Shown here one piece after another: positions 11,806 to 59,330 of a DNA stretch of 64,000 nucleotides. A model generated the notes under the pieces. That model made no database searches. It was given only the letters and a program-made list of their open reading frames with translations, and had not been told where the DNA came from. Source of the DNA: Roseovarius sp. (GTDB lineage Bacteria > Pseudomonadota > Alphaproteobacteria > Rhodobacterales > Rhodobacteraceae); contig NZ_JBLXFE010000017.1 in assembly GCF_048262375.1 (NCBI RefSeq), positions 581 through 64,580 of the forward strand. Direction: 5' to 3'. Within the stretch, counting starts at the first letter, position 1; each line of letters begins with the position of its first letter. The position numbers and the translations under genes are program-made.

Positions 11806-11828
11806 GCAGCAAATCGCCTATCGCGGGT

Positions 11829-13382: not shown

Positions 13383-13398
13383 TGCAATCGGGATTGCA
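13383..13398. promoter_or_regulatory. Perfect inverted repeat TGCAATC-GG-GATTGCA ending 2 nt before the glsB-like start codon
   Basis: Read directly from sequence 13383-13398. ATG is at 13401. Confidence 0.45.
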
Positions 13399-13400
13399 GC

Positions 13401-42874: not shown

Positions 42875-42879
42875 GCATT

Positions 42880-42904
42880 CGGGCCGGGATAAATCCCCGG
42901 CCCG
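42880..42904. terminator. Intercistronic hairpin directly after spt
   Basis: CGGGCCGGG-ATAAATC-CCCGGCCCG (9-bp stem), 8 nt before the next ATG. Confidence 0.55.
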
Positions 42905-42912
42905 TAGACCCC

Positions 42913-43890
42913 ATGACGGTAAGTATGGCAATGGCAATGCAGGCCCCCAAAGACCCCAAGTCGCGAGCAGGGGCAATGCTGGCGCATCTGTCGGACCCGC
43001 ACCTGCCGTTGTCCGGTGGCGTGCCGCTGCGCGCCGTGCTGAACAAGCGCCTGCTTGGCCTCTTGTCGTGGCATTTGAAACGGCACCGCCGCCATCGGCC
43101 TGAAACACTGACTCGGCTGATCGCAGACCTGCGGTGCCAGTCCCCTGATCTGATCGCGGTGACCGGGGATCTGACCAACCTTGGCCTGGACAGTGAATAC
43201 CGCGCGGCCCGCACTTGGCTAGAAGGGCTGGGCGATCCACGCCATGTCATGGTCATTCCCGGCAATCACGAGGCGCTGATTGACGGCGCCTGGGACCGTG
43301 GGGCGGCATCTTGGCAACCCTATTGGCAAGGCGATGAGGCCCTTCGGACCACGGATGTTGCACAGGCCTTTCCCGTCTTGCGCCGACGGGGCCCGCTGGC
43401 CCTGATTGGCACCTCAAGTGCCATTGCCACGCCCTTGGGGTTTGCCTCAGGCGAAATGGGCAAGGCTCAGCTTGATCGGCTTGCTGCCTTGCTACGGCGC
43501 ACCCGCAGCGAGGGGCTGTTTCGGGTGCTCATGATCCATCACCCACCGCTCGACGGGACGGTCGTGGCGCGCAAACATCTGCGCGACGGCGCAGCCCTCC
43601 GAGCCTTGCTGCAAACCGAGGGCGTCGAGCTGGTCCTGCATGGCCACAGCCACAGAAGCCATCAGCAGAGCTTGACAACGCGCGACGGGTCTGTGCCGGT
43701 GATCGGGGTTCCTTCGGCCTCTTCGATGCACCACGAGGCGGCGGCCTATAACCTTTACAATATTGTTCCTACAGATACGGGATGGAGCGTGACCCTCACA
43801 ACCCGACGTTTGGGCGAGGGTCAGAAAATGGAGACGGGTCGATGCGTCAGTTTGACAATACCGCGCCCGCACGCGGCATGCGCGTCATGA
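42913..43890 (+). CDS. Calcineurin-like metallophosphoesterase
   Basis: All five motifs are present: HLSDPH, TGDLTN, PGNHE, HHP and LHGHSH. Confidence 0.9.
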   Translation: MTVSMAMAMQAPKDPKSRAGAMLAHLSDPHLPLSGGVPLRAVLNKRLLGLLSWHLKRHRRHRPETLTRLIADLRCQSPDLIAVTGDLTNLGLDSEYRAARTWLEGLGDPRHVMVIPGNHEALIDGAWDRGAASWQPYWQGDEALRTTDVAQAFPVLRRRGPLALIGTSSAIATPLGFASGEMGKAQLDRLAALLRRTRSEGLFRVLMIHHPPLDGTVVARKHLRDGAALRALLQTEGVELVLHGHSHRSHQQSLTTRDGSVPVIGVPSASSMHHEAAAYNLYNIVPTDTGWSVTLTTRRLGEGQKMETGRCVSLTIPRPHAACAS

Positions 43891-44011
43891 CACGGCCCCT
43901 CGATACCGGTTCAAGACCGATTGCGGCAGGCAGTTTGACCGCATGCCGCAACTACAGGATAACTGTGCATCCGGTGCGCAATTCGTCCGACCAAGACACG
44001 AAAGTCCTCTC

Positions 44012-45715: not shown

Positions 45716-46880
45716 TCGGCTCTGAGGCCAGCGTCTGCGCGCCCTCCTCGGGCGGCGCCAACCCCATGAGCGCATTGATCCGCGCGACGGCGCGCGCCAT
45801 GTCGCTTGGCGGTGGCGTCCCTTGGGGCGCCGCCACCGGCTCTCCCAGCCAGTTCATTCTGCCCGAACGCACCAGCCTGAGATGCATCTGGCTGATATCG
45901 CGTGACAGATGTTTCCAACCCCATCGCATCAGCCCCCGGTATGCCAAGGCGCCAAGGGTCAAATCGGGCCGGTCCGTGTCCTGTCGGCGCAGGGCCTCCG
46001 CCTGTTGCGTCTCTCCGAGCGCCAACAGCGTATCGCGGCGCATGCTGAAAGAGCCCGCGCTCAGATCGAACATATGCACGGGTTTCCCGGTGGCATAGGC
46101 CTCTGACAACATCGAGATGCTGTCGGCCGTCACGATGATCTCATCGGCGAGGGCGAGAAACCCGAGATAGGGGTTATCTGGATCACCGGGTGTCCAGCGA
46201 TACAGATGCATGGGCACCTCTTGCTGCGCGGCAAAGGCGTCAATCGCTTGGTGCGGGGTTCGCGCGCTCGAGCTGACCAAGAGCGATCCACCACGCTTGC
46301 GCGCCAGATCCAGCGTATCGCGCAAGAGCCGCTGCGCCGCCCGTGAACCAAAGGCATAGGGGCCGCTTGATCCACCGATATTCACGGTCAGATAGGGCCG
46401 CGGCAGATGGGCAAGATCTTGGGCCCAGCGGGCCTTGGCCTCGGCCAGACGACGCGGTCCCAGCGGATGCAGGGGCAGGGCGTTGCGCAGAACATTCGGC
46501 CCGTCGGGGACCCGGTATTGCGGTGTGGTGATCACCAGATCGAACAGCGCTGGATCGGCCCACAGACGTCCCAGAAACACCAGCCGGGTGCGACCGCCCG
46601 ATTGATCGCGGATCCACCGGCACACAGGTTCGTTGCGCATTGCCATGGACAGCACAAGATCGGGCCATGGCGGCGCAAGCGCATCAGAGGCCGGCACATC
46701 GATGCCCCGCAGATCCTTGCCGCGCAACAGGTTGGTGCGCATCTCGAATTTGCGGTATTTGAGGGTTTTGATCTCATAGGGCCAACCCAGCCCGTCGGCC
46801 AAGGCGCGCAATTGGGTTTTCTCGCCCGATCTGTAGGCATCCACCACCCAGACACGCGGGCTCATTATTGGCTCAGACAT
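45702..46880 (-). CDS. ELM1/GtrOC1-family putative glycosyltransferase (paralog 1)
   Basis: RSGEKTQLRALADGLG, AMRNEP, ITTPQY, IGGSSG, SSSARTP, NPYLGFLALADEIIVTADSISMLSEA. Confidence 0.8.
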   Translation of the reverse strand: MSEPIMSPRVWVVDAYRSGEKTQLRALADGLGWPYEIKTLKYRKFEMRTNLLRGKDLRGIDVPASDALAPPWPDLVLSMAMRNEPVCRWIRDQSGGRTRLVFLGRLWADPALFDLVITTPQYRVPDGPNVLRNALPLHPLGPRRLAEAKARWAQDLAHLPRPYLTVNIGGSSGPYAFGSRAAQRLLRDTLDLARKRGGSLLVSSSARTPHQAIDAFAAQQEVPMHLYRWTPGDPDNPYLGFLALADEIIVTADSISMLSEAYATGKPVHMFDLSAGSFSMRRDTLLALGETQQAEALRRQDTDRPDLTLGALAYRGLMRWGWKHLSRDISQMHLRLVRSGRMNWLGEPVAAPQGTPPPSDMARAVARINALMGLAPPEEGAQTLASEPITQP

Positions 46881-47826
46881 CAGGCGCTTTTGCCGCCGCA
46901 GGATCTGGCTTGGGCCAGCGTCGCTTCATACAGACCCATTCGCCCGGATATTCGCGGATCCAGCTTTCAAACAACGCATTCAATTGGCGGGTCAGATCAA
47001 GTATCCGCTCCGTGCGCGGGGCGTCCGGCGCGCTCGGGCTGAGCGGGGCCAATACCTCGATCCGATACCGACAGTTTGGCAAGCGCACTGCCCGGATGGG
47101 CACAAGGGTATAGCCCCGCTGGGCGAGCATGGCCGGCAAGGTGCTGGTGGGCGTCGGCACGCCGAACAACGGCACCATCTCTCCCTGATCAATCCGGGTA
47201 TCAAACGCGGCGCCAACAGAACGCCCCGCCGCCAGTTCCCGCATAAGCTCGCGCGCGCCCCCCGTGCTTGGCACAAGCGGGCCACCAAATGCGCGACGTC
47301 TGGCAAGAAAGAACTTATGTAGCCACGGATTGGGCTCTTGGGTGTAAATGACGGAAATCGTCAACCCATATTCCCGCCCGATCAGGTTGCACAGTTGCCA
47401 TGCGCCGACATGGGCCGTGGCAAAAACAATCGCCTCTTTGCGGTCAAAGGCGGCCTGAGCCTCTGGGTGGATCGAAAACTCCAGATGCCGCGCGCGTCGT
47501 CGCCACAGGCGACCGAGCAGAAACAACTCCGCCGCCGCAAGGCCGGTGGACCGAAAGATTTGCCGCACCACGTCCTCGCGCGCGGTTTCGCTGGCGTCTG
47601 GCAAAACAAAGGACACATTGCGCCGCACCACACGGCGCTTTTTCTCATTATAATAGCCAAACTTTCCCAGCAGACGCGAAAAGACCACGGCCGCCACCCG
47701 AAACGGGACGATCCGGGCAAATCCAAGCAAGAGATAGAAAACCGAAGCTTCCAGAAGCCAGACAGGGGTTTGGATCCAGCCAATCCGCTCAACCAGCCCC
47801 TTGGGCATCAAATAGTATTTGGCCAT
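46873..47826 (-). CDS. LpxL/HtrB-family lysophospholipid acyltransferase with a non-canonical HX4Q motif
   Basis: TAHVGAWQL, AFDTRIDQG, PLFG, TLPAMLA, WIREYPGEWVCMKRRW. Confidence 0.82.
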   Translation of the reverse strand: MAKYYLMPKGLVERIGWIQTPVWLLEASVFYLLLGFARIVPFRVAAVVFSRLLGKFGYYNEKKRRVVRRNVSFVLPDASETAREDVVRQIFRSTGLAAAELFLLGRLWRRRARHLEFSIHPEAQAAFDRKEAIVFATAHVGAWQLCNLIGREYGLTISVIYTQEPNPWLHKFFLARRRAFGGPLVPSTGGARELMRELAAGRSVGAAFDTRIDQGEMVPLFGVPTPTSTLPAMLAQRGYTLVPIRAVRLPNCRYRIEVLAPLSPSAPDAPRTERILDLTRQLNALFESWIREYPGEWVCMKRRWPKPDPAAAKAPDV

Positions 47827-47880
47827 AGCAGGATCCCATCCCGGATCGGCGGCGCGGATATGAGGTCACGCAGCCTGCGC

Positions 47881-48528
47881 CTAGTCTCGACCAGACCGCT
47901 CTGTCTTGGACGGGTATGTGCGGAATATCCAGTCCCAAAAGGGAGAGCTTACCCCATATCTGCCATCCTCATTCGAAAAGTGATGACGCATGTGGTAATG
48001 CTTGAGGAACTTCAGCAGGGGGTGACGCATCGGAAAATGGTGCGTCGCATAGTGGATGTAATCATAGACCAGATAACCGATGATGAAAAACCCGGTGAAC
48101 GGCTCGGCCCAAGGATAGGGCAGGACCGTGTAAAACAAGAGGTAAAGCACGGCAATGATCGGCAGCGCCCCGGCGGGCGGCATCAGCAGGCGGGTCTTGT
48201 CCTGCGGCGTGTCGTGGTGGACCCCGTGGAACAGATAGATAAACCGCTTGCCCGCGTCGGTCTTGGGCTCAAAATGGAACAGATAGCGGTGCAACAGATA
48301 CTCTGCCAGCGTCCATGTCGCCAAACCGGCCACCCCGATCAACAGCAGTCCGGAAAATCCGATCCCATGCACGCTAACCGCGCGCACCAACAGCCAGATC
48401 GCCACCGGGCCCCAGACCAGCAACGGAACGATCGGATGGACATGGCTCAGCTTTTCCAGAATTGGATTGTCGAACAAGCGCACCGACTCGTCGACACGGT
48501 GGGTGCGACTGGGCTGATGATTAGACAT
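47881..48528 (-). CDS. Fatty-acid hydroxylase superfamily, FA2H/Scs7-like sphingolipid alpha-hydroxylase (no cytochrome b5 domain)
   Basis: Four His boxes: EYLLHRYLFH, HGVHHD, YDYIHYATHH and HMRHH. Also RLLMPP and YGVSSPFWDWIFRT. Confidence 0.85.
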   Translation of the reverse strand: MSNHQPSRTHRVDESVRLFDNPILEKLSHVHPIVPLLVWGPVAIWLLVRAVSVHGIGFSGLLLIGVAGLATWTLAEYLLHRYLFHFEPKTDAGKRFIYLFHGVHHDTPQDKTRLLMPPAGALPIIAVLYLLFYTVLPYPWAEPFTGFFIIGYLVYDYIHYATHHFPMRHPLLKFLKHYHMRHHFSNEDGRYGVSSPFWDWIFRTYPSKTERSGRD

Positions 48529-48554
48529 GGGGGCACTCCTGATATGCGCCGAAC

Positions 48555-49523
48555 TTACCCGTCTTCATATACATCGGTCTTGGCCCGAAGAACAGTAGAC
48601 GGCCATATTTTGCTCGTACAAAGCCATTCTCCGGGCTTTGCCGTTATCCATTGCTCGAACTTTTCGTTGATCTGATTGGCGAGGTCAACCGCCTGATTGT
48701 CGCGGTCAAGGCCGGGGTCCCTGGGGACCAGCGGGGCATGGAAACGCACCCGAAACCGCGCCCCCGGCAAACGTTCTGCCTGCACTGGCACCAGCGGCAC
48801 GCCAGACCGCAGAGCCAGTCGGGCGGGCAGGATAGAGGTCTCTTTCCCCTCGCCAAAAAACGGGAGCGATTTGCCCCCTTCGATGCGCCTGTCAGTGATC
48901 ATCATCGGAGAACGGCCTGATTTCAACGCATCCATAAAGGCGCGCAGCCCGTCATCACGCGACACCAGATCGCATCCCAGAACGCTGCGATAGTTCAGCA
49001 TCAGCCGGTCGAGCCAAGGATTGGACAGCGGCGCGTACATCGCGCGCGCCGGAATGCCAAGCCGGGTAATCGCAAGCGCGATCACTTCCCAATTGGCCAA
49101 ATGCGCCGCAACAAACACCGCAGGTGGGTGCGGCGCAGTATAGGCGGGAATTTGCTCGAGTATTTCAATACTGATACAATTCCGCCGAATATCACCAATC
49201 TTGTGAAGATTGGGATACTCCGCCAAAACCGAGCCCGCATTGCCCCAGACCTCATCCGCGAGTCGGCTGATCTCAGCGGGGGATTTCTCTGGCAAAACAA
49301 GCGAGAGGTTGGCGCGCACATGCTGGGATCGCCGATAGGCGATTTTGCCAAAGAGCGTCCCAAGACGCCTCCCAAGCCCCGAGGCCCAAGCCAAGGGCAA
49401 AACCCTGAAAAGCCCCATGAACGTGGAGACAAGAACATAATCGACGAACCACAGGATGTTTCGAACGAAAGCATTGTTGAATGCTCTGTGACGTTGCGCA
49501 TTCGCGAGAATGAATTTGGCCAA
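48555..49523 (-). CDS. LpxL/HtrB-family lysophospholipid acyltransferase (canonical HX4E)
   Basis: AAHLANWEV, YAPLSNP, ITDRR, PFFG, LPARLA, WITAKPGEWL. Confidence 0.85.
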   Translation of the reverse strand: MAKFILANAQRHRAFNNAFVRNILWFVDYVLVSTFMGLFRVLPLAWASGLGRRLGTLFGKIAYRRSQHVRANLSLVLPEKSPAEISRLADEVWGNAGSVLAEYPNLHKIGDIRRNCISIEILEQIPAYTAPHPPAVFVAAHLANWEVIALAITRLGIPARAMYAPLSNPWLDRLMLNYRSVLGCDLVSRDDGLRAFMDALKSGRSPMMITDRRIEGGKSLPFFGEGKETSILPARLALRSGVPLVPVQAERLPGARFRVRFHAPLVPRDPGLDRDNQAVDLANQINEKFEQWITAKPGEWLCTSKIWPSTVLRAKTDVYEDG

Positions 49524-50961: not shown

Positions 50962-51783
50962 GTGAAAGACTTTACTTCCGTAATTCTCGCTGGTGAGCGG
51001 GCAGACCGTGATGCTCTGCGTGATGAAACCGGCGTGGCCTGCAAGGCGCTGCTTGACATAGATGGAACGATCATGATCCGCCGCGTGATAAACGCGCTCG
51101 AGCAGGCCTCCTCTATTGCCTCGATCCACCTGAGCGGCCCCACCGAAGCCTGCGTCAAAAGCGATGCCGGGCTGACGGAACTCATGGCGCAGAACCGGGT
51201 GGACTGGACCGCTCCCGGTGTCTCTCCCAGCACCAGCGCGCATGAGATGCTCAGCCGGTTTCCCGCAACACAGCCGGTGTTGATCACCACCGCCGACCAT
51301 CCTTTGCTGACGGGTGAAATTGTCGATCACTTCTGCCGTGGCAGCGCCAAGAGCGGCTGTGACGTGGTGATCGGTCTGGCCCCCTATGATCTGGTCAGAG
51401 ATACCTATCCCGACCTGAAGAAAACTGTGCTTCAGTTCCGTGACGGTGGCTATTGCGGCTGCAACCTCTTCGCCTTCATGACGCAAGAAGGGCGTGGCGT
51501 GGCCGATTTCTGGCGACGTGTCGAAAAGGACCGTAAAAAGCCGCTCGTGGTGATCCGGCTCTTGGGGCTCTGGGCCTTGCTGCGCTACAGGCTTGGCTGG
51601 CTCAGTCTCGATCAGGCGCTTGCGGGCCTGTCCCGCCGCGTCGGCCTGCGCATTGGCGTCGTGATCCTGCCCTTTGCGCATGCCTCAGTGGATGTGGATT
51701 CGGTGTCTGACTATCTGCTGGTGCAACGCTACAGCAAGGAGGCGGCAGAGCGTAGCAAAGCCGAGTCCAGCCCCGCGGGCTAA
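50962..51783 (+). CDS. MobA-like NTP transferase (CpgD-like cytidylyltransferase candidate)
   Basis: VILAGER, KALLDIDG, ITTADHPLL, GCNLFAF and VDVDS. Directly follows the bCerS-like gene. Confidence 0.78.
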   Translation: MKDFTSVILAGERADRDALRDETGVACKALLDIDGTIMIRRVINALEQASSIASIHLSGPTEACVKSDAGLTELMAQNRVDWTAPGVSPSTSAHEMLSRFPATQPVLITTADHPLLTGEIVDHFCRGSAKSGCDVVIGLAPYDLVRDTYPDLKKTVLQFRDGGYCGCNLFAFMTQEGRGVADFWRRVEKDRKKPLVVIRLLGLWALLRYRLGWLSLDQALAGLSRRVGLRIGVVILPFAHASVDVDSVSDYLLVQRYSKEAAERSKAESSPAG

Positions 51784-51819
51784 GCCCTTGAGTGGGCAAG
51801 GGGCAATGACGTGCCCGGC

Positions 51820-52794
51820 TCAGCCGCCACTGTAGCCAAAGACCGGGTCAAGCACGTCCTCGACCATCCTATCAACCACGCGCAATTGCTCGGGTGTGAA
51901 ATAGTCGCGATAACCGCCGACCTTGCCGCGCCGCACTTTGAACGAGTCGGGATTGCTCTCGTCGCCCGGCTTGACCCGTTGACCGCTGGCCCGCATCCCC
52001 TCGTTTTTTGCCTCGCGTTTTTTCATATTCTCATAGGCGGCATAGTCCTTGGCCGCTTCGATATGGGCGGGGTCCGGTGTGGTGCCGGTGAATGTCACCA
52101 CTTGGCGCAGAACCTCTGCCGGATCGCTGCGCAAATCCTCATAGCGCACCACCAGCACGTCATCCCCCAACTCTGGCACTGACCGGGCCCAGACGTTGAA
52201 CGCCTCGACAATGCGCGGGATGCCGCAATCGGGATTGCACACGAAATCAAAAATATCGACCTCGGTGCCATGCGGCGGATAGGAATTCAGCGCCTTTTTC
52301 CGGGGCAACATGCGATAACGCCATTGAAAATACTGCGACACCGCGACATCGCGCGGATCACGCACCAACAGCACCAGCTTCTTGCCGCGATAATACGCAA
52401 GATTGTCCCATTGGCCGAGATAATCACGGATGTAATTGTTATGACTGAACAATACCTTCGGCGCATTTGGATTGAGCCGGTGAAAATTGTCGAACTCCAG
52501 CATATACTCGGTGTCGAGGTTGAAATGCAGCTGATAGAACCGCGACAGCATGACCCGGAACCATGTGCGTCCGCTCTTGCCCCATGACACCAGCGCCCAG
52601 TCCGCCTGTTGCAGCTTGGCATATTCCTGTTTGCCGCGCAGACGACGTTCCAGAGAGATCTTCTTGGCCTTGGGCAAGAAGAACAGAGCTGTGAGTGTCA
52701 GGTGACGCGAGGCCACCTCCCATATCTCGCGGTAGGATGTGTTGGTCATATTCAGGCAATCCAGTAAGGGATCAGGGTTTCGTGCCTTGCTCAT
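51820..52794 (-). CDS. PAPS-dependent sulfotransferase (Sulfotransfer_1 family), paralog 1
   Basis: 5'-PSB SWGKSGRTW, 3'-PB VRDPRDVAVS, RYEDL, YENMKKRE and RRGKVGGYRDYF. Start chosen at ATG 52794 by alignment with paralog 2. Confidence 0.9.
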   Translation of the reverse strand: MSKARNPDPLLDCLNMTNTSYREIWEVASRHLTLTALFFLPKAKKISLERRLRGKQEYAKLQQADWALVSWGKSGRTWFRVMLSRFYQLHFNLDTEYMLEFDNFHRLNPNAPKVLFSHNNYIRDYLGQWDNLAYYRGKKLVLLVRDPRDVAVSQYFQWRYRMLPRKKALNSYPPHGTEVDIFDFVCNPDCGIPRIVEAFNVWARSVPELGDDVLVVRYEDLRSDPAEVLRQVVTFTGTTPDPAHIEAAKDYAAYENMKKREAKNEGMRASGQRVKPGDESNPDSFKVRRGKVGGYRDYFTPEQLRVVDRMVEDVLDPVFGYSGG

Positions 52795-52866
52795 AGAGGG
52801 TATCGCTCGGTCTTTGTATGGGTAATTTTGTCCGGATGGGGTACAGGTGCCAGTCTGTGACATGGA

Positions 52867-54000
52867 ATGTGCAACATCGCGCGCAGAGAAAGGGAATCGT
52901 CGTTGGATCACAACAACGCATCGCCACATGGCAGGGTCTGGTGCCTTCTGGGGCGCAAGGCGGGTGACAATACGCAGGTGCTGGCACTGGCCGAGGCTTT
53001 GGGATGGCCGTTTGAGAGCAAGACGATCCTTGCCCGCAGCTGGGAATTGCTGCCGCATCTCGTGTTGGGGGCCACCCTCATGGGCATCAACCGGCAGACC
53101 TCCAGCGCATTGGCCCCGCCTTGGCCGGATTTGGTGATCAGCGCCGGACGCCGCAACGAACCCGTGGCACGGTGGATTCGTCAGCAATCGGGTGGCCTCA
53201 CGCGCCTTGTGCATATCGGCCGTCCTTGGGCGCCGCCTGAGTGTTATGACCTGATTGTCAGCACGCCACAGTATTTCCTGACACCGGGGCCCAAGGTGCT
53301 GATCAATCCGCTGCCCATGCACCAGTTTACCCGCGCAGGCGTGGATGCGGCTGCACAGAAGGCGTCACCCGGCCTTGCACATCTGCCGCGCCCTTTTACC
53401 ACCGTGCTGATTGGCGGCGATAGCGGCCCCTTCGTGTTTACCGCTGAAAAAGGCCGTCGTCTGGCCGAAGGCATCAACCGCCTGGTGCGCCAAACCGGTG
53501 GGACGGCTTTGGTCACCGGTAGCCCCCGCACACCTCGCGCTGTGGCAGAGGCGGTGCGCGCGACCCTCAATGTTCCCGCCGAAACCTATTGGTGGCATCA
53601 GCGCGACACCACAAACGCCAATCCCTATTCCGCCTTTCTTGGCTTGGCGGACCGGTTCGTCGTGACCGGAGAAAGCATGTCGATGCTGGCAGAGGCCGCA
53701 AGCCTTGGGCGGCCGCTCTATCTCTTTGATCCCAGCGACCCTCCGGGATGCTGGGCATGCTCTGCGCATAATTTCCGCCACAAGCCGCTCAGTCACGCCT
53801 TGGCCATGCGCTTTGCGCCGGTCCGCATGCGCCGCGACATTTCACGGATACAGAATGCGCTGGTGCAAGAGGGGCGCGCCCGCTGGATCGAGAATGCCCC
53901 TGACCTCATCGCGCAGGGGGAGACTTGGACAGAAAAAATGCGCTCCGGCCCATTGGACGGAGCGCATAAAGCGGCGGCACGGGTCCGCGCACTGTTCTAA
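52867..54000 (+). CDS. ELM1/GtrOC1-family putative glycosyltransferase (paralog 2)
   Basis: RKAGDNTQVLALAEALG, AGRRNEP, VSTPQY, IGGDSG, TGSPRTP, NPYSAFLGLADRFVVTGESMSMLAEA. TTG 52903 is an alternative start. Confidence 0.8.
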   Translation: MCNIARRERESSLDHNNASPHGRVWCLLGRKAGDNTQVLALAEALGWPFESKTILARSWELLPHLVLGATLMGINRQTSSALAPPWPDLVISAGRRNEPVARWIRQQSGGLTRLVHIGRPWAPPECYDLIVSTPQYFLTPGPKVLINPLPMHQFTRAGVDAAAQKASPGLAHLPRPFTTVLIGGDSGPFVFTAEKGRRLAEGINRLVRQTGGTALVTGSPRTPRAVAEAVRATLNVPAETYWWHQRDTTNANPYSAFLGLADRFVVTGESMSMLAEAASLGRPLYLFDPSDPPGCWACSAHNFRHKPLSHALAMRFAPVRMRRDISRIQNALVQEGRARWIENAPDLIAQGETWTEKMRSGPLDGAHKAAARVRALF

Positions 54001-54002
54001 CC

Positions 54003-54023
54003 GGCGCGGCCTTGGGCCGCGCC
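54003..54023. terminator. Bidirectional hairpin between convergent genes
   Basis: GGCGCGGCC-TTG-GGCCGCGCC. Confidence 0.6.
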
Positions 54024-54032
54024 ATATATCAC

Positions 54033-54983
54033 TCAGGCCGCGCGGGCGAGATTGCCGGTGCTCAGGGGATGCGCCGGGGCAGGGGGCAGGCTGGGCACGC
54101 GCGCCAGCACTTCAAGCGCATCGTGGCGGACATGGTTTTCTTCCATTTCCTTGCGCAGGAACTCTTCCGTGAGCTTGCCTTGCTCAACACATTCCTTGAC
54201 CAGACCCCAGAAGAAATTCTCCTGGTTCTTGTCCGGATGCTCTTTGTAATTGCCCATCAGGCCATACTCGCCGAAAATCTTGCGGCGCAAGCGTAGAATC
54301 CAAGCGGCTGGCGGGAACAGGCGGAACCGCTCTGCGGGGCGCCAATCCACCGGCAGGCCGGTTTTCCACGGCTGCGTCTTGCGGCGGGTGGTATGCAGCA
54401 TTTTGGTGTCGGTGGTGAATTTATCGAAATCATTCCATTCGGTTTCAATAAATTCGAGAGTTTCAGGGTTTTCGTCGCGCAGACCAATCCAGCGCGAATA
54501 GTCGTGATCGCCGTCGAACATGGCGTTGAATTGCTCTTCAACCTTCCAATGCTTCAACTGCGCGCAATCGAGCAGCATTACAGAGCTGGCATAGGCCTTG
54601 TCGATCAGGCCCTTGGTGCCAGAGCGCATGCGCGCCATGACGGCCTTGCCCTTCATGTCGCGGCTCAGCAATTCCCAGATGTCGGCGCAGGCAAACACGT
54701 CCGGGTCAATGACCACGGCGCGGCCTTCATAGCCCATCAGTTCGGGGGGCATAAAGCGGGTCGGGGTAAAGGATTGAAGATCCTCGTTCAGCCAGACGCG
54801 CTTGACGCCGTCGCGCATATATTCCTGACCTTCGCGGGCCATGAAGAACGGGTAATTCCGGCTGTTGACTATATGCACGTCAAATTTATCATTATTGGTA
54901 GAGTAGCGGCGCAGCGCATGTTCTGCGACAATGGCGCCGACGATCTGCTTGTGGTTCGTCTGGATGAATACTGCGTGTTTCAT
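54033..54983 (-). CDS. GT-A-fold nucleotide-diphospho-sugar transferase (GT8/CDI-like)
   Basis: SFTPTRFMPP, AVVIDPDVF (DxD), SSVMLLDC, EWNDFD and HTTRRKTQPWK. Confidence 0.72.
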   Translation of the reverse strand: MKHAVFIQTNHKQIVGAIVAEHALRRYSTNNDKFDVHIVNSRNYPFFMAREGQEYMRDGVKRVWLNEDLQSFTPTRFMPPELMGYEGRAVVIDPDVFACADIWELLSRDMKGKAVMARMRSGTKGLIDKAYASSVMLLDCAQLKHWKVEEQFNAMFDGDHDYSRWIGLRDENPETLEFIETEWNDFDKFTTDTKMLHTTRRKTQPWKTGLPVDWRPAERFRLFPPAAWILRLRRKIFGEYGLMGNYKEHPDKNQENFFWGLVKECVEQGKLTEEFLRKEMEENHVRHDALEVLARVPSLPPAPAHPLSTGNLARAA

Positions 54984-55173
54984 GGTGGGGGATCCGCAAC
55001 CTCGGTTTTTTTGTTCTGAGCGGCTCTATACAGGAGTTTTTTCTGAGACGCCATGTCCAGAAACACAATTAAAACTGTCGTGTATTGATCTGGATCAGAG
55101 ATTGGGCCGAATGCTACGCTTTTGTAACCAAAACGTGGCCTGATACGCGGGTTCCCGCCCATGCACAGGGCCT

Positions 55174-56133
55174 TTAGCGAAACACCCCGCGCCGGTAGAG
55201 ATGGCGCATGAATCCCCAGATATGGATCAGTGGACGCCGGCGGACCTTATCGGGGATTTCAACCACCTGCCCGGAATGACGCGAGAGTTTCCACGCAAGG
55301 TAATCCAGCCCGCCCTCAAAGGTGAACAGCCCCTTGATCAACCGCGCCACCGAGAGCGCCTTGCCCTGAATGCGTCGCACCGCCCATAGCGCCGGGGCCA
55401 GACGACGTGCCCAAACTCCGGCGCGGCTGTGGTAAACCAGCGTGCCGTCACGCTCTTCAATCTGCAGAACGCCACCAAGGCGCGGCAACAGTCCCCGCGT
55501 CAGAGATTCGAAAAACGCGCGCCCATGTCCCGCCAGTTCAGCGGCCCGGCCCTGCCGCTCGGCGCGCAATTCGGTGGCATAGCTCAACGCCAGCGCACCT
55601 TGCCATAAATCATCGAGCCCGCCTTCGGGGGGCAATGCCGGAACCGCGCGGCGCAAGAGGGTTTCTCCCGCCTGAAAAAATGCCGCGTGCAAACGCTGCC
55701 GGGTCGCCTCAGAGTCGCACCAGACCGGTTTGACCGGCTGTGCGAACCGCCCCCAAAGATACGAGTGAAACCAGCCGGGGCCAGTGCCGCGCTCAAATTG
55801 CGACAGGCTGAGCACCGCGTATTTGCAACGCACCGTCTGAGAACCCAGTGAAGTTTCCAGATAATAGACATTCGGCGGCAGCAACCGCCCCCCGAGACGC
55901 AGCCAAAGCCGCGGCTCGGCACGGGGTGTGCTCTCGACCAAGACATAGAAATCAACCAACCCTTCCATTAGCTCGGTGCTGCGCAGACAGGACCCATACA
56001 GAATCACGGCCTGCAATCCAGCCCCAAACCGGCATTCCAACGCGGTCATCAACGCGCGCAGCGCCGGAGAACTCTCCAGCGTGGGGCCTTCGGGGGTAGG
56101 ATATTCAGCCGGAAAGGGCTGCACGCCGGTCAT
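55174..56133 (-). CDS. Tam41/Mmp37-like nucleotidyltransferase (CDP-lipid synthase candidate; CpgC-like)
   Basis: AVILYGSC...GLVDFYVLV (Pol-beta-type NTase motif), PPNVYY, KYAV, WGRFAQP, SYATELRAE and FTFEGGLDYLAWKLSRHSG. Directly downstream of the DAGK gene. Confidence 0.7.
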   Translation of the reverse strand: MTGVQPFPAEYPTPEGPTLESSPALRALMTALECRFGAGLQAVILYGSCLRSTELMEGLVDFYVLVESTPRAEPRLWLRLGGRLLPPNVYYLETSLGSQTVRCKYAVLSLSQFERGTGPGWFHSYLWGRFAQPVKPVWCDSEATRQRLHAAFFQAGETLLRRAVPALPPEGGLDDLWQGALALSYATELRAERQGRAAELAGHGRAFFESLTRGLLPRLGGVLQIEERDGTLVYHSRAGVWARRLAPALWAVRRIQGKALSVARLIKGLFTFEGGLDYLAWKLSRHSGQVVEIPDKVRRRPLIHIWGFMRHLYRRGVFR

Positions 56134-56210
56134 GGATCAGATACGCCTCGAATGAATACTCTGCTGCCCGTGTTATATGCCCGCGCCACCGGGGCAAACA
56201 AGCGCTGCGC

Positions 56211-57197
56211 CTAGCGGGGCCGCAAGAACCGGATCGGGCCCTCTGCGGTAATCACCAGCGGAGCAGCGTCACCAGCGGTGGCGAACAGCTCGCCATCAAG
56301 ATTGATCTCGCCTTCAAAGCTCAGCGCGATGCGCTCCGCGTGAAAACTCTCATAGCCATTCTGCGCGGTCACATGCCGGTTCGGATGTCCGCGCAGGATC
56401 GACGGAAAGGCGCGGGCAAATCGCAGCGCGCCGCCCCGGATTGCGGTCACTCCGATAGGCGCATCCGCCTTGGCCCAAAACGGCCTGATCCCAAGAAACA
56501 GCCGCCCTAGCGTGCTCGCGACAAGGATCAGCATCGGGGCTTCCTCGCGTGTCACCGGCGCGTCTTTGGCCCCCTGCAAGGTCATCGCCACATGGGTGGG
56601 TTGATAAAACCGGGGGTCTTGACGGATCAGGCCCCAGACCGAACGGATCAGGATCATCCCAAGGCTGATTTCGCCGCCCAAACCCCGTGAATGCACTTCT
56701 TTATGTGCAAATTTTGTGGCCTGCATGATGGCCCCGGTGCCCAGAAACATGCCATAGCGCGCATGCCCATCGGCCGCGCCCTCAACCCGCATGATGTGGC
56801 GTTCGCGAATGTCGCCGTTCAGCGGCGCCCCCCGATCAAGCCACCTGAAAAACCGCTGCAAGGCGCGCCGATGTGTTGACGCGGTGCCAATATCACCCGC
56901 CGTCATATTGGCGGTGCCGCCGGGCAGGATGATGATCAGCGGCAGATTGTCAGCGCACCAGTGGTTGAGGATCATGCCCAACGCGGCAGCAATCGTGCCG
57001 TCCCCCCCGTTGATCGCTACCACGTCGGGCCGCATTGCGGCCAACTGCGGAACAATCTCCTCTGCCTCTTGCGGCGAGCGGGTAACATAATGGCGGACCT
57101 GAGGATAGGCTGACAACCGCGCCTCGATCCGGGCCTGCCATTTGCGGTTATTGCCGCTGGTTGGATTGCTGATCACACAGACGCGCGTCTGGCTCAT
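56211..57197 (-). CDS. Diacylglycerol/sphingosine kinase-family lipid kinase (ceramide kinase CpgB-like)
   Basis: SNPTSG, INGGDGT, LPGGTANMTA and NLDGE. Start at ATG 57197. Confidence 0.87.
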   Translation of the reverse strand: MSQTRVCVISNPTSGNNRKWQARIEARLSAYPQVRHYVTRSPQEAEEIVPQLAAMRPDVVAINGGDGTIAAALGMILNHWCADNLPLIIILPGGTANMTAGDIGTASTHRRALQRFFRWLDRGAPLNGDIRERHIMRVEGAADGHARYGMFLGTGAIMQATKFAHKEVHSRGLGGEISLGMILIRSVWGLIRQDPRFYQPTHVAMTLQGAKDAPVTREEAPMLILVASTLGRLFLGIRPFWAKADAPIGVTAIRGGALRFARAFPSILRGHPNRHVTAQNGYESFHAERIALSFEGEINLDGELFATAGDAAPLVITAEGPIRFLRPR

Positions 57198-57198
57198 G

Positions 57199-58350
57199 TC
57201 AAACCCTCGACAAAAGCTGATCAATTCGGCCTAGGATGCGCGCGACGTCCTCATCCGTGGCCGACAGCGCGGGACGCGTCGTAGACGGGCGCTCCTTGTC
57301 GTCACCCATCCAACTGGCCAGACCTCGATCCACAAGAATCTGGTGAAACCGCGGGAAATGCCGGGTTTGTTGCATCAATCGCAGGTGATAGAGCCCCCGT
57401 GCAAACGCAAGGCGAAGAGACTCGGCAAGCCCCGTATTCCGGCGGGGTTGAAACATCCAAGCCGCCGCGCGGCGGCGCGCATCATCCAGCGTGCCCAGCC
57501 AGCCAAACGGCAGTGGCAAAATTTCGAGCGGTTTGCCAAGACGGGCCACCTCGACCTGCATCGAGATACTGTCGCCGGTTACAATGAACCGATCCGCCAG
57601 CGCCAAAAGACCGGTATACGGGTTCTCGCTCTCGGGTTGGCCCCAGTCAAACACCCGCAGCGCGTCGGGAAACCCTGCACAGATCCGGTTTAGAAATCCG
57701 TCAGGGGTGCGCCGTGATCCGACGACATAGGGCGTCCCGCCTGTCTCCAGGACCTGCGCAATCCGGGCGCGCAATCGCTCTTCCAACTCGGCGTTGTAGA
57801 CAAACGGGCTGGTCGGACCGCCAATCAGAAAAACCACCAATGGACGCGGCAGATCAGCCCAGGCCGCCTGCCAGTTTTTGCGCCCCGACTCGAGCCGTTC
57901 CGGGCTGATCTTCATCAGGGGCAGATCAATCTGCATCACATTCTCAAAGGGTGCGGGCAGGGTCTCGGCGCTGGTCACGATCAGATCGAATTTCGCCATC
58001 TGATGCGAAAACCACCCGGCAGGTTTGCCCACCAGCACGATCCGCGTGCGCCCGCCCGATTGCTTCTTGATCCAGAGCGCCACATTTGCCGGGCGCCGTC
58101 CCCGCGTCAGGATCAGATCCGGCCAAGGCGGCTCAATAGGATCGCTGAGGCTCAGATCGACATGATGCAGGGTCGCGCCGACGCGCGGCTTGCCATGCAC
58201 ATAGCGCGGCAGCATCTCCAGATGCCGCAATTCCGAGGTCCAGCCGCGCTGCTGCGCCAGGGCCTCGGCGACAATATCGACCTGCGCATTATCGCCACGC
58301 TTGTCACTCAGAACCCGCCAGATGCGGGGGGGGGCCTTGGGCTGGCTCAT
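57199..58350 (-). CDS. ELM1/GtrOC1-family putative glycosyltransferase (paralog 3)
   Basis: DKRGDNAQVDIVAEALA, RGRRPAN, IGGPTSP, GSRRTP, NPYTGLLALADRFIVTGDSISMQVEV. Confidence 0.8.
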   Translation of the reverse strand: MSQPKAPPRIWRVLSDKRGDNAQVDIVAEALAQQRGWTSELRHLEMLPRYVHGKPRVGATLHHVDLSLSDPIEPPWPDLILTRGRRPANVALWIKKQSGGRTRIVLVGKPAGWFSHQMAKFDLIVTSAETLPAPFENVMQIDLPLMKISPERLESGRKNWQAAWADLPRPLVVFLIGGPTSPFVYNAELEERLRARIAQVLETGGTPYVVGSRRTPDGFLNRICAGFPDALRVFDWGQPESENPYTGLLALADRFIVTGDSISMQVEVARLGKPLEILPLPFGWLGTLDDARRRAAAWMFQPRRNTGLAESLRLAFARGLYHLRLMQQTRHFPRFHQILVDRGLASWMGDDKERPSTTRPALSATDEDVARILGRIDQLLSRV

Positions 58351-59330
58351 TCTGCCGTTTTATCCGCGGATGCAGCCGGCCCATAGCCGTAGACCGGGTC
58401 CAGCCGTTCGGCCACCAGCGCGTCGATCACCTCGATCTGCGCATCCTCGAAATAATCCCGGTAGCCGCCCACCTTGGCGCGGCGCGTCTTGTAGCTGTCG
58501 GGGTTGCTCTGATCGCCGGGGGCCATGCGCGCGCCACTGAGGCGAAAACTGTTCTCGGCCTCTTTCTTTTTCATGTTTTCGAAATCGGCGTAGTTCACCG
58601 CCTCTTGAATGACGGTGGCATCGGCCGGAATATCAAGAAACCGGGCGACCTGTGTCAGGGTCTCATGCGGATTCGCGCGCATATCCTCGTAACGAATGAG
58701 GCTCAGCGCGCGCACCTTGTCGGTCTCACGCGCCCAGATGTTCATAAAGTCGATAATCTTGGGCAGCCCGCCCCCCTCGTGCAGCACAAAGTCATAGATC
58801 GAACTGTCGTCGCCATGCGGCAGGTATTCGTTCAAGAGCTTCTTCTCGGAGGGCATCCGAAAGCGCCACTGGAAAAACTGCGACACCGCCACATCGCGCG
58901 GATCGCGCATCATCAACAGCACTTTCTTGTCGTAGAAATCGACCTTGCTGTCGGTGTGGCCTGTGTAATCGCCGATATAATTGTCATGCGTAAAGAACAG
59001 CCTCGGCACCCGGCTGTCCATGTTGTGGAAATTGTCGAACCCGATCAGAATATCCTCGGGCAGGTCATAAACCTGCTGATAAAGCCGCGAAATCATCACC
59101 CGCAGCCATGTGCGCCCGCTTTTGCCAAATGAGACCACCACGGCATCGGCCCGTTGCAGGCTGGCATATTGCTCGCGCCCGCGCATCTGCCGCTCGGCGC
59201 GGATGCGTTCGGCCTGATCGGCCCCCTTCAGATCCATCTTCAACTTGAGAAGACGCCGACTGGCCTTGCGCCAGACGACCTTGCTTGCCTCAGGAAACGA
59301 CGCACGCAAAAGACGAAATGTATCGCTCAT
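58347..59330 (-). CDS. PAPS-dependent sulfotransferase (Sulfotransfer_1 family), paralog 2
   Basis: SFGKSGRTW, MRDPRDVAVS, RYEDM, FENMKKKE and RRAKVGGYRDYF. ATGA overlap with ELM1 paralog 3. Confidence 0.9.
   Translation of the reverse strand: MSDTFRLLRASFPEASKVVWRKASRRLLKLKMDLKGADQAERIRAERQMRGREQYASLQRADAVVVSFGKSGRTWLRVMISRLYQQVYDLPEDILIGFDNFHNMDSRVPRLFFTHDNYIGDYTGHTDSKVDFYDKKVLLMMRDPRDVAVSQFFQWRFRMPSEKKLLNEYLPHGDDSSIYDFVLHEGGGLPKIIDFMNIWARETDKVRALSLIRYEDMRANPHETLTQVARFLDIPADATVIQEAVNYADFENMKKKEAENSFRLSGARMAPGDQSNPDSYKTRRAKVGGYRDYFEDAQIEVIDALVAERLDPVYGYGPAASADKTAE

What the first reader, a model, noticed from the sequence alone, without database searches (positions are those of the whole stretch)
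51820..59330. Two paralogous PAPS sulfotransferases inside the sphingolipid cluster: candidate bacterial sulfatide-like lipid
Both ORFs (51820-52794 and 58347-59330) keep the SULT motifs 5'-PSB S[WF]GKSGRTW, 3'-PB RDPRDVAVS and a C-terminal RR[GA]KVGGYRDYF. Paralog 2 is coupled by an ATGA overlap to an ELM1 gene, which ends 1 nt before the ceramide-kinase-like gene, so sulfation is genetically tied to the lipid pathway. Inference: two distinct sulfation sites on a ceramide head group or backbone, giving an anionic sulfo-sphingolipid. This would be an analogue of animal sulfatide, made by an unrelated enzyme family. No PAPS-synthesis genes (cysDNC) are in the window, so the host must supply PAPS.
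Basis: partly seen in the sequence, partly recalled or inferred. Interest (0 to 1): 0.82.

Follow-up and report, generated by a model that had tools for sequence, protein, structure and literature searches.

The report
Sulfotransferase pair inside Roseovarius sphingolipid island
Two intact sulfate-adding enzymes sit among sugar-adding enzymes in the gene island that makes the published 'roseoceramide' lipids of Roseovarius, which predicts a sulfated, sugar-bearing bacterial sphingolipid that I found described nowhere in the papers I could search and that can be tested in strains already in culture.

Summary
Both ORFs are full-length PAPS-type sulfotransferases (Pfam PF00685, E 1e-24 and 1e-25), 47% identical, with every cofactor and catalytic motif kept. 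The ATGA overlap and the 1-nt gap before the kinase gene are real.

They lie in a ~24-kb accessory island (38586-62381). Its core is the published Roseovarius 'rcc' roseoceramide cluster. That paper does not mention the tailoring half of the island.

In 81 loci from many bacterial lineages, this sulfotransferase family travels with:
- ELM1-like glycosyltransferases (67 of 81);
- a conserved 316-aa protein that I show to be GT8-like (66 of 81);
- the ceramide kinase/CpgC pair (32-35 of 81).

Where no kinase lies within 10 kb, 19 of 21 genomes still carry bCerS elsewhere, against 30 of 400 in a phylum sample.

The most likely function is sulfation of sugars on a glyco-phospho-sphingolipid at the cytoplasmic face, followed by export through the MsbA-like pump.

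The ATGA coupling it relied on is lineage-specific, and the acceptor is more likely a sugar than the ceramide itself. No chemistry exists yet. The genome supplies PAPS through a fused ATP-sulfurylase/APS-kinase.

The parts
58347..59330 (-). ST2, PAPS-type sulfotransferase (327 aa), orthogroup A
   Evidence: PF00685 E 1.2e-25. AF2 model pLDDT 85.2, with best Foldseek matches to cytosolic SULT and plant SOT structures. Sits in tree clade A, n=68. No TM segment or signal peptide; N-terminal 60 residues are basic (net +9) and predicted as two long helices.
51820..52794 (-). ST1, PAPS-type sulfotransferase (324 aa), orthogroup B; monocistronic, divergent from ELM1b
   Evidence: PF00685 E 2.5e-24. 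47% identical to ST2. Tree clade B, n=50, support 98.
57199..58350 (-). ELM1c, ELM1-like (GT-B clan) putative glycosyltransferase, overlapping ST2 by ATGA
   Evidence: PF06258 E 7e-46; junction read. A. baumannii ELM1-like 2903/GtrOC1 is required for LOS core extension (PMC10936431).
56211..57197 (-). Ceramide-kinase-like lipid kinase (CpgB-like)
   Evidence: DAGK_cat E 2.4e-15. Adjacent to the Tam41-like gene in 31 loci, as CC_1160/CC_1161 are in Caulobacter.
55174..56133 (-). Tam41-like protein (CpgC/CC_1161-like)
   Evidence: Weak Pfam Tam41_Mmp37 hit, E 0.0047, below cut-off. CC_1161 is described with the same domain. Homologues found in 17 of 21 sulfotransferase-bearing genomes.
54033..54983 (-). 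U316, GT8-like GT-A glycosyltransferase with no Pfam family; the most conserved gene of the module
   Evidence: No Pfam or NCBIfam hit. AF2 pLDDT 86.6. Top 50 Foldseek PDB hits are almost all GT8-type enzymes: XXYLT1, GlyE, LARGE1, LgtC, glycogenin (E about 3e-9). Invariant D93-P94-D95. Present in 66 of 81 loci at 52-95% identity.
52867..54000 (+). ELM1b, ELM1-like putative glycosyltransferase, divergent from ST1
   Evidence: PF06258 E 7.8e-60.
50962..51783 (+). MobA-like nucleotidyltransferase (CpgD/CC_1153-like)
   Evidence: NTP_transf_3 E 3.7e-15. CpgD makes CDP-glycerate in Caulobacter (PMC12275187).
49762..50913 (+). bCerS, GNAT-type bacterial ceramide synthase (the ORF could start at 49510)
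   Evidence: Acetyltransf_1. Homologues align from about residue 80-105. The R. mucosus gene is called at 383 aa. Internal Met at residue 85.
45702..49523 (-). LpxL-like b, fatty-acid hydroxylase, LpxL-like a and ELM1a (co-oriented tailoring genes)
   Evidence: PF03279 twice, PF04116 and PF06258. A third LpxL homologue lies elsewhere in the genome.
38586..45715 (+). rcc core: AasR, CerR, AcpR, Spt, RccE-like phosphoesterase, RccF-like MsbA-type exporter
   Evidence: Pfam. Spt passes NCBIfam serine palmitoyltransferase equivalog NF047599 (579.8 bits against cut-off 500). rcc cluster described in PMC11789144.
59546..61510 (-). AT3-SGNH membrane O-acyltransferase at the island edge
   Evidence: PF01757 plus PF19040. 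Same position in R. mucosus.

Best explanation
ST1 and ST2 are active, cytoplasmic, PAPS-dependent O-sulfotransferases. They belong to the head-group tailoring machinery of a sphingolipid island.

The island makes a short-chain dihydroceramide, known from R. tolerans and R. mucosus as roseoceramide A. The proposed route from there is:
1. The CpgB-like kinase phosphorylates the ceramide, and the CpgC-like and MobA-like enzymes extend it.
2. Three ELM1-like enzymes and one GT8-like enzyme add sugars.
3. ST1 and ST2 sulfate hydroxyls of those sugars, all at the cytoplasmic face of the inner membrane.
4. The hydroxylase and the two LpxL-like enzymes may add extra acyl chains.
5. The MsbA-like RccF pump exports the finished anionic lipid towards the outer membrane.

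Shown here: domain identities, intact catalytic motifs, gene order, comparative linkage, PAPS supply, and absence of export signals. Shown by others: ceramide production by the island's core. Inferred: the acceptor, the order of steps and the final structure.
For: 1. Both enzymes look intact. PF00685 passes its cut-off and the PSB-loop Lys, catalytic His and 3'-PB Arg/Ser are invariant. The fold matches SULT/SOT structures.

2. The family keeps the same neighbours in 81 loci: ELM1 in 67, GT8-like in 66, Tam41-like in 35, CerK in 32, ABC exporter in 28.

3. Adjacency patterns pair sulfotransferases with glycosyltransferases. Clade A lies next to the GT8-like gene in 38 of 68 cases. Clade D lies directly upstream of ELM1c in 35 of 37.

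4. Where no CerK lies within 10 kb, bCerS is elsewhere in the genome in 19 of 21 cases and the CpgC-like gene in 17 of 21. The background rate of bCerS is 30 of 400. Fisher p = 9e-18, which ignores shared ancestry.

5. Within the genus, the sulfotransferases, all three ELM1 genes and the orthologous bCerS are present together in 3 of 25 genomes and absent together in the other 22.

6. R. mucosus, in which roseoceramide A was measured, has the same gene order with the sulfotransferases inside (PMC11789144).

7. The genome has a PUA_2/ATP-sulfurylase/APS-kinase fusion, so PAPS is available.

8. The sulfotransferases, ELM1 proteins, GT8-like protein, kinase and CpgC-like protein have no TM segment or signal peptide. 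An ABC exporter is encoded in the island.
Against: - No sulfated lipid has been reported. The published Roseovarius lipidomics found only free dihydroceramides.
- Two sulfotransferase-bearing genomes (G053, G054) have neither bCerS nor a CpgC-like gene. There the module sits with AsmA, GT4 and a hydroxylase. The module can therefore exist without this ceramide pathway.
- In Thiohalobacter a family member lies next to a Wzy_C/O-antigen-ligase-type gene.
- The nearest solved structures are small-molecule and steroid sulfotransferases, which does not indicate a sugar acceptor.
- The co-occurrence statistics ignore phylogenetic non-independence.
Confidence: 0.6

Rival explanations
1. The sulfotransferases sulfate the lipid part or a non-sugar head group directly. 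Candidate acceptors are the ceramide C1 or C3 hydroxyl, the hydroxyl introduced by the fatty-acid hydroxylase, or a glycerate. The product would be a ceramide sulfate, as the first reader partly proposed.
For: The closest solved structures are hydroxysteroid, cholesterol and bile-acid SULTs and plant SOTs, which act on small or lipid-like alcohols. A hydroxylase is in the island. Ceramide 1-sulfates exist in marine invertebrates, and the review that describes them gives no biosynthetic enzyme.
Against: The conserved neighbours of the sulfotransferases are glycosyltransferases, not the hydroxylase (5 of 81 loci), bCerS (5 of 81) or even the kinase. The C1 hydroxyl is the expected kinase target.
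Confidence: 0.15
2. The ST/ELM1/GT8-like module decorates a non-sphingolipid envelope glycoconjugate such as LPS core, lipid A or a capsule. It is clustered with the sphingolipid genes only because both serve the outer membrane.
For: The A. baumannii ELM1-like protein works on LOS core. Thiohalobacter has a family member beside a Wzy_C-type gene. G053 and G054 carry the module without bCerS or CpgC. LpxL-like genes accompany the module in 16 loci.
Against: In this genus, 22 genomes lack ELM1 and these sulfotransferases altogether, so the module is not part of the housekeeping LPS pathway. The genome has a separate LpxL homologue outside the island. The module is enriched in bCerS-positive genomes. 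Here it is translationally coupled to the lipid kinase.
Confidence: 0.15
3. The sulfotransferases modify a soluble small molecule unrelated to envelope lipids, or they are no longer functional.
For: They are SULT-like in fold. Some sources annotate relatives as 'alcohol sulfotransferase'.
Against: The motifs are invariant and identity stays at 50% or more across bacterial classes and phyla, which argues for purifying selection. Synteny with lipid and glycan enzymes is consistent.
Confidence: 0.04

Closest known systems
Roseovarius 'rcc' roseoceramide cluster (R. tolerans EL-164, R. mucosus DSM 17069; Ganley & Seyedsayamdost, PNAS 2025, PMC11789144)
   Same: Same genus. The core is the same: aas, cerR, acp, spt, RccE phosphoesterase, RccF MsbA-like exporter, with bCerS nearby. 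The R. mucosus locus has the same gene order as the window, and its ST2 is 85% identical.
   Different: The paper defines the cluster as the five ceramide genes plus RccE and RccF, and reports only free dihydroceramides. A text search found no mention of the sulfotransferases, ELM1 or head groups, and the outline and the five sections I read say nothing of a lipid kinase, GT8-like, LpxL-like or hydroxylase gene.
Caulobacter crescentus anionic sphingolipid pathway (ceramide phosphoglycerate CPG/CPG2; CpgA-D, CC_1152-CC_1168)
   Same: Both have the ceramide core, a DAGK-type ceramide kinase next to a Tam41-like gene, a MobA-like or other nucleotidyltransferase, and a calcineurin-type phosphoesterase. 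Both would yield an anionic head group for the outer membrane.
   Different: The island has no CDP-alcohol phosphotransferase (CpgA) and no LptF2/G2/C2. It has an MsbA-type exporter instead. It adds three ELM1-like genes, a GT8-like gene, two sulfotransferases, two LpxL-like genes and a hydroxylase. Sulfotransferase, ELM1 and DUF1022 are mentioned in neither the Zik nor the PLoS Pathogens paper; the CpgD paper names no sulfotransferase or ELM1 either.
Animal sulfatide (3-O-sulfogalactosylceramide; made by CGT/UGT8 and cerebroside sulfotransferase GAL3ST1)
   Same: The predicted logic is the same: ceramide, then glycosylation, then PAPS-dependent sulfation of the sugar to give an anionic glycosphingolipid.
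   Different: The sulfotransferase family differs: PF00685 SULT-like here, with no other sulfotransferase family hit. The glycosyltransferases differ, a phosphate-containing linker is likely, and the reaction is cytoplasmic rather than in the Golgi lumen. That GAL3ST1 belongs to a separate Pfam family is from my own knowledge.
Acinetobacter baumannii LOS core ELM1-like protein (A1S_2903 / GtrOC1)
   Same: PF06258, GT-B clan. It is genetically required to extend a lipid-anchored glycan at the cytoplasmic face.
   Different: It acts on Kdo2-lipid A, not on a ceramide, and no sulfotransferase partner is reported.
Cytosolic SULTs and plant SOTs (for example mouse SULT7A1 5x2b, Arabidopsis SOT16/18, human SULT2A1/2B1)
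   Same: Same fold and the same PAPS-binding and catalytic residues.
   Different: About 16-22% identity. The bacterial family has an extra basic two-helix N-terminal extension of about 60 residues and a different, unknown acceptor.
Ceramide 1-sulfates and sulfated ceramide glycosides of marine and freshwater invertebrates (calyceramides, Watersipora ceramide sulfates, syriacin)
   Same: They are sulfated ceramide-based lipids from aquatic sources.
   Different: They were isolated from sponges and bryozoans and have long chains. The papers I read name no biosynthetic genes. A bacterial origin is only a speculation of mine.

Membership tests
PAPS-dependent sulfotransferase, Pfam PF00685 (Sulfotransfer_1) | Profile match above the gathering score | tested here: met
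   86.5 and 90.8 bits against a cut-off of 22.
PAPS-dependent sulfotransferase, Pfam PF00685 (Sulfotransfer_1) | 5'-PSB loop Lys, catalytic His, 3'-PB Arg/Ser and the C-terminal GxxGxxK/R-type motif | tested here: met
   K70, H115, R142, S150, R283/R284 and G288/G289 are invariant in 20 members. They align to KSG, TH(L)NY and RNPKDxxVS of 5x2b.
PAPS-dependent sulfotransferase, Pfam PF00685 (Sulfotransfer_1) | SULT fold | tested here: met
   AF2 pLDDT 85.2. Foldseek probability 1.0 to more than 50 SULT/SOT chains, TM about 0.5-0.6.
PAPS-dependent sulfotransferase, Pfam PF00685 (Sulfotransfer_1) | Sulfate transfer from PAPS to an acceptor | not testable with these tools
   Needs an enzyme assay.
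Animal cerebroside (galactosylceramide) sulfotransferase family | Sequence membership in the Gal-3-O-sulfotransferase family | tested here: not met
   A Pfam-A scan at E <= 0.01 returns only PF00685 and PF13469.
Bacterial (Caulobacter/Roseovarius rcc-type) ceramide synthesis cluster | Spt, a dedicated ACP, an acyl-ACP synthetase, CerR reductase and GNAT bCerS | tested here: met
   All five are present by Pfam. Spt passes NCBIfam equivalog NF047599. The same layout occurs in R. mucosus, a roseoceramide producer.
Caulobacter CPG2 head-group pathway (CpgA-D) | DAGK-type ceramide kinase (CpgB) adjacent to a Tam41-like CpgC | tested here: inconclusive
   The kinase has DAGK_cat at E 2.4e-15. The Tam41 hit is only E 0.0047, below cut-off. 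The pair is conserved in 31 loci. No direct alignment to the Caulobacter proteins was possible.
Caulobacter CPG2 head-group pathway (CpgA-D) | CDP-alcohol phosphotransferase CpgA (PF01066) | tested here: not met
   None of the 20 island proteins scanned hits PF01066.
ELM1-like bacterial glycosyltransferases (PF06258; GtrOC1/2903 type) | PF06258 match | tested here: met
   Three paralogs, E 7e-46 to 8e-60.
ELM1-like bacterial glycosyltransferases (PF06258; GtrOC1/2903 type) | Glycosyl transfer to a lipid-linked acceptor | not testable with these tools
   Only genetic evidence exists, and only for A. baumannii.
GT8 retaining glycosyltransferases | GT-A fold with a DxD motif resembling LgtC and glycogenin | tested here: met
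   The top Foldseek hits are almost all GT8-type enzymes, E about 3e-9. D93-P-D95 is invariant.
GT8 retaining glycosyltransferases | Sequence-profile membership (Pfam Glyco_transf_8) | tested here: not met
   No Pfam or NCBIfam hit at E <= 0.01. It is GT8-like by fold only.
Rhizobial LPS/capsule sulfotransferases (for example S. meliloti LpsS) | Sulfation of LPS or K-antigen | not tested
   Recalled from memory only. No sequence was compared.

The most novel reading that the evidence does not exclude
Roseoceramide A is not the end product of the Roseovarius island. It is the precursor of an LPS-like lipid that is hydroxylated, multiply acylated, phosphorylated, glycosylated and doubly sulfated, and that is exported by RccF.

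On this reading, the published roughly 20-fold 'induction' of roseoceramide A happens because tailoring stalls. That induction occurs under iron and oxygen limitation, the two effects are additive, and transcription does not change. The island's hydroxylase (PF04116) belongs to a family I recall as di-iron and O2-dependent. The kinase and PAPS steps need ATP.

The ST/ELM1/GT8-like triad would then define a widespread 'sphingo-LOS' in marine Proteobacteria.
Probability: 0.3. Interest if true: 0.85.

Novelty: new variant of a known kind. Interest (0 to 1): 0.72.

Why it matters
Bacterial sphingolipids are a young field. The known anionic head groups are phosphoglycerate (Caulobacter) and uronic acids (Sphingomonas). 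My searches of PubMed Central and bioRxiv found no sulfated bacterial sphingolipid and no enzyme for one.

Here the prediction falls in culturable strains, R. mucosus DSM 17069 and R. tolerans EL-164. These strains already have published lipidomics and RNA-seq for the same island, and R. nubinhibens is a natural negative control. One negative-ion MS or 35S-labelling experiment could settle the question.

If confirmed, four things would follow:
- A function for a large sulfotransferase family that is 50% or more identical across bacterial classes and phyla.
- A function for the unannotated GT8-like family, which has more than 4,900 members.
- A function for bacterial ELM1 proteins.
- A different reading of the published iron-limitation response.

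Tried and rejected
- **Promoter and terminator scan, 51600-59700.** It found 6 and 10 sites against 2.8±2.0 and 6.8±3.1 in shuffles. None lies at an expected junction, so it gives no operon evidence.
- **NCBIfam.** It gave no name for the sulfotransferases, ELM1 proteins, GT8-like protein, CpgC-like protein or bCerS.
- **Residues that distinguish ST1-type from ST2-type.** Only one column is diagnostic at the 85% threshold (F/W68, beside the PSB loop). Sequence alone therefore does not show different regiospecificity.
- **The ATGA overlap as a conserved coupling.** I considered and rejected this. It occurs in 2 of 68 clade-A genes.
- **The two LpxL-like genes as the genome's housekeeping lipid A acyltransferases.** Rejected, because a third copy lies on contig C6.
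- **Literature searches.** I searched for sulfotransferase with bacterial sphingolipid or Caulobacter, and for sulfated ceramides. They returned only animal sulfatide papers and invertebrate natural products.
- **Direct alignment to Caulobacter CpgB/CpgC.** Not possible, because I had no way to fetch those sequences.


Full report
**1. Observation**

The two ORFs exist as described: 51820-52794(-) and 58347-59330(-).
- Both pass the Pfam Sulfotransfer_1 gathering score (E 2.5e-24 and 1.2e-25).
- They are 47% identical over 318 residues.
- In an alignment of 20 family members, the PSB-loop Lys (K70), H115 in FFTHDNY, R142 and S150 of RDPRDVAVS, and the RRxKVGGYRDYF block are invariant.
- A profile search of solved structures aligns these to the KSG, TH(L)NY and RNPKDxxVS elements of mouse SULT7A1 (5x2b) and many other SULTs.
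- An AlphaFold model of ST2 (pLDDT 85.2) finds SULT and SOT structures as best matches (Foldseek probability 1.0).
- The ATGA overlap of ST2 with the next gene, and the single base between that gene's stop and the kinase ATG, are read directly in the sequence.

**2. Surroundings**

Pfam places the two genes in a block of about 24 kb, from 38586 to about 62381.
- Plus strand, 38586-45715: acyl-ACP synthetase, CerR-type reductase, ACP, Spt, a calcineurin-type phosphoesterase and an MsbA-type ABC exporter.
- Minus strand, 45702-49523: ELM1a, LpxL-like a, a fatty-acid hydroxylase and LpxL-like b.
- Then bCerS (GNAT) and a MobA-like nucleotidyltransferase on the plus strand.
- Then ST1(-), ELM1b(+), a 316-aa protein without a family(-), a Tam41-like protein(-), a DAGK-type lipid kinase(-), ELM1c(-), ST2(-) and an AT3-SGNH acyltransferase(-).

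Spt passes an NCBIfam serine palmitoyltransferase equivalog (579.8 bits against a cut-off of 500). It passes the betaproteobacterial-type model, not the alphaproteobacterial one. Upstream of 38586 are ordinary transport and metabolism genes.

**3. What is already known about this island**

The best relatives of ST2 are Roseovarius proteins, for example R. mucosus at 85% identity.

A 2025 PNAS paper (PMC11789144) describes the 'rcc' roseoceramide cluster of R. tolerans EL-164 and R. mucosus DSM 17069.
- It defines the cluster as five ceramide genes plus a phosphodiesterase (RccE) and an MsbA-like transporter (RccF).
- It validates the Spt in vitro.
- The product is roseoceramide A, a 14:0/12:0 dihydroceramide.
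- The cluster is absent from R. nubinhibens.

The R. mucosus contig carrying the ST2 orthologue has the same order as the window: AT3-SGNH, ST2, ELM1c, kinase, Tam41-like, 316-aa protein, ELM1b, ST1, nucleotidyltransferase, bCerS, LpxL, hydroxylase. The ceramide-making part of the island is therefore experimentally established in a sister species.

A text search of the paper found no mention of sulfotransferases, ELM1, head groups or phosphoglycerate. The outline and the five sections I read mention no lipid kinase.

The Caulobacter literature supplies the likely roles of three other genes.
- The kinase resembles CpgB, the ceramide kinase.
- The Tam41-like protein resembles CpgC.
- The nucleotidyltransferase resembles CpgD or CC_1153.

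A text search found sulfotransferases and ELM1 mentioned in none of those Caulobacter papers.

**4. The unnamed 316-aa protein**

It has no Pfam or NCBIfam match. It is nevertheless the most conserved gene of the neighbourhood, with more than 4,900 homologues, all listed as 'hypothetical'.
- A model built on 23 sequences has pLDDT 86.6.
- Its best 50 PDB matches are almost all GT8-type glycosyltransferases: XXYLT1, GlyE, LARGE1, LgtC and glycogenin (E about 3e-9).
- D93-P94-D95 is invariant.

It is a GT8-like GT-A enzyme by fold.

Bacterial ELM1-like proteins belong to the GT-B clan. One is genetically required for LOS core extension in A. baumannii.

**5. Comparative test of the link to sphingolipids**

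A scan of one genome per species found at least 423 relatives of the sulfotransferases. I analysed 81 loci: the 80 best from that scan plus the Thiohalobacter locus L021. They come from Halieaceae, Porticoccaceae, Thiogranum, Methylococcales, several alphaproteobacterial orders, Myxococcota, a deltaproteobacterial lineage and Spirochaetaceae.

A tblastn search with the window's proteins gave these counts:

| Neighbour | Loci of 81 |
|---|---|
| ELM1 | 67 |
| GT8-like | 66 |
| Tam41-like | 35 |
| Lipid kinase | 32 |
| ABC exporter | 28 |
| LpxL-like | 16 |
| Spt | 7 |
| bCerS | 5 |

The flanks were only 10 kb, which limits the last two rows.

For 21 genomes whose sulfotransferase locus has no kinase nearby:
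- bCerS is found elsewhere in 19;
- a CpgC-like gene is found in 17.

In a 400-genome sample of the phylum, bCerS occurs in 30 and the sulfotransferase family in 1, which is also bCerS-positive. Fisher p is 9e-18. This number treats genomes as independent, which they are not.

Within the genus, ST orthologues, all three ELM1 genes and the orthologous bCerS occur together in 3 of 25 genomes and are absent together from the other 22.

The genome has a third LpxL homologue outside the island. It has no ELM1 outside the island. The module is therefore not part of the genus's ordinary LPS pathway.

**6. Relationship of the two paralogs**

In a tree of 179 sulfotransferases from these loci:
- ST2 falls in clade A (68 members);
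- ST1 falls in clade B (50 members, support 98);
- there is also a clade C (24 members) and a distant clade D (37 members).

Clades A and B occur together in 40 of 81 loci, often as a B-then-A tandem (26 loci). The duplication is therefore old and both copies are kept.

Clade D is the usual gene directly upstream of ELM1c (35 of 37). The window lacks clade D. Another Roseovarius genome (L024) still has a GT8-like gene and a clade-D sulfotransferase between ST2 and ELM1c. Only 2 of 68 clade-A genes abut ELM1c.

The conserved neighbour of clade A is the GT8-like gene (38 of 68).

Only one alignment column separates A from B at the 85% level. Different regiospecificity is plausible but not shown.

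**7. Mechanism**

The sulfotransferases, ELM1 proteins, GT8-like protein, kinase and Tam41-like protein have no TM segment or signal peptide. PAPS is cytoplasmic. The genome encodes a PUA_2/ATP-sulfurylase/APS-kinase fusion on contig C2.

ST2 has a basic N-terminal extension (net +9 in the first 60 residues), predicted as two long helices. This would suit a peripheral membrane enzyme, but that is inference.

I therefore propose the following route.
1. Ceramide is phosphorylated.
2. It is extended by the CpgC-like and nucleotidyltransferase steps.
3. It is glycosylated by the ELM1-like and GT8-like enzymes.
4. It is sulfated by ST1 and ST2 on sugar hydroxyls.
5. It may be further acylated after hydroxylation.
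6. It is flipped by the RccF-type exporter.

The sulfotransferase-glycosyltransferase adjacency patterns are the reason for preferring sugar acceptors. The acceptor and the order of steps are inferred, not shown.

**8. Caveats and rivals**

- No sulfated lipid has been seen. The published Roseovarius work detected only free dihydroceramides in the m/z 414-456 range.
- Two genomes (G053, G054) carry the ST/ELM1/GT8-like module without bCerS or CpgC. There it sits beside a hydroxylase, an AsmA-family protein and a GT4.
- In Thiohalobacter, one family member lies next to a Wzy_C-type gene.
- A non-sphingolipid acceptor is therefore possible in some lineages. I give that rival about 0.15 here.
- Direct sulfation of the lipid part also gets about 0.15. 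The nearest structures are steroid and alcohol sulfotransferases.

**9. A lead noticed on the way**

The PNAS paper reports that roseoceramide A rises about 20-fold with essentially no transcriptional change. It also reports that accumulation is inversely related to both iron and oxygen, additively. The authors were unable to delete the cluster.

The island contains a PF04116 fatty-acid hydroxylase. From my own knowledge, this family is di-iron and O2-dependent. The island also contains ATP- and PAPS-consuming steps.

An alternative reading is that the free ceramide piles up because tailoring stalls. This is speculation, but it is directly testable.

**10. Novelty and verdict**

The enzymes belong to a known superfamily, and the ceramide core is published. 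The new element is a conserved sulfation-plus-glycosylation module attached to it. My literature searches found no bacterial sulfated sphingolipid and no enzyme for one. Sulfated ceramides are known only from invertebrates.

Earlier notes of this scan reach similar readings for other genomes. They are not independent evidence, and I re-derived the linkage here.

I rate the finding a new variant of a known kind. Interest is 0.72, raised by the fact that this instance lies in cultured, already-studied strains.

Noticed in passing
window 47881-48528 (with PMC11789144): The island's PF04116 fatty-acid hydroxylase belongs to a family I recall as di-iron and O2-dependent. The published accumulation of roseoceramide A is triggered additively by iron and oxygen limitation, without transcriptional change. 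The free ceramide may be a stalled intermediate rather than an induced end product.
   Followed up: partly
window 41657-42874: The Spt passes the NCBIfam betaproteobacterial-type serine palmitoyltransferase equivalog (579.8 against cut-off 500) but not the alphaproteobacterial one (447 against 670). Only 3 of 25 genus genomes carry the island. Together these suggest horizontal acquisition from a beta- or gammaproteobacterial lineage.
   Followed up: partly
L024 (Roseovarius sp. UBA6167), about 10950-13500, versus window 58347-58350: Another Roseovarius keeps a second GT8-like gene and a distant clade-D sulfotransferase between ST2 and ELM1c. The window and R. mucosus lack both. The ATGA junction therefore looks like the scar of a two-gene deletion.
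   Followed up: partly
L086 and L088 (genomes G053, G054; Rhodovibrionaceae / Rhodospirillales): Three sulfotransferases, one GT8-like gene and one ELM1c-like gene sit beside a fatty-acid hydroxylase, a 1365-aa AsmA-family protein, a GT4, two 2OG-Fe oxygenases and GlmU/GlmS-like genes. These genomes have no detectable bCerS or CpgC-like gene. This may be the same module on a different lipid anchor.
   Followed up: partly
window 49510-50913: The bCerS ORF is open from 49510 (467 aa). Homologues align only from about residue 80-105, and the R. mucosus gene is called at 383 aa. The real start is probably the ATG at 49762.
   Followed up: yes
own genome G000: C1:225182-226812, C49:1617-4219, C3:265605-266270: Five further PF00685 sulfotransferase hits lie outside the window (two tandem pairs and a weak single). 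The organism therefore uses PAPS for other sulfations too.
   Followed up: no
window 61545-62381: A 278-aa protein without any Pfam family follows the AT3-SGNH gene. It is conserved at the same position in two other Roseovarius loci (77-80% identity) and once in Algihabitans (47%). Its function is unknown.
   Followed up: no
L021 (Thiohalobacter sp. COW1, AP024239.1 1422369-1443373): A gammaproteobacterial ST2 relative at 72% identity flanks a Wzy_C-type gene. A separate ST-ELM1 pair and a GT8-like gene lie about 7 kb away, interrupted by TonB/ExbBD genes. The genome was not held, so I could not check for sphingolipid genes.
   Followed up: no
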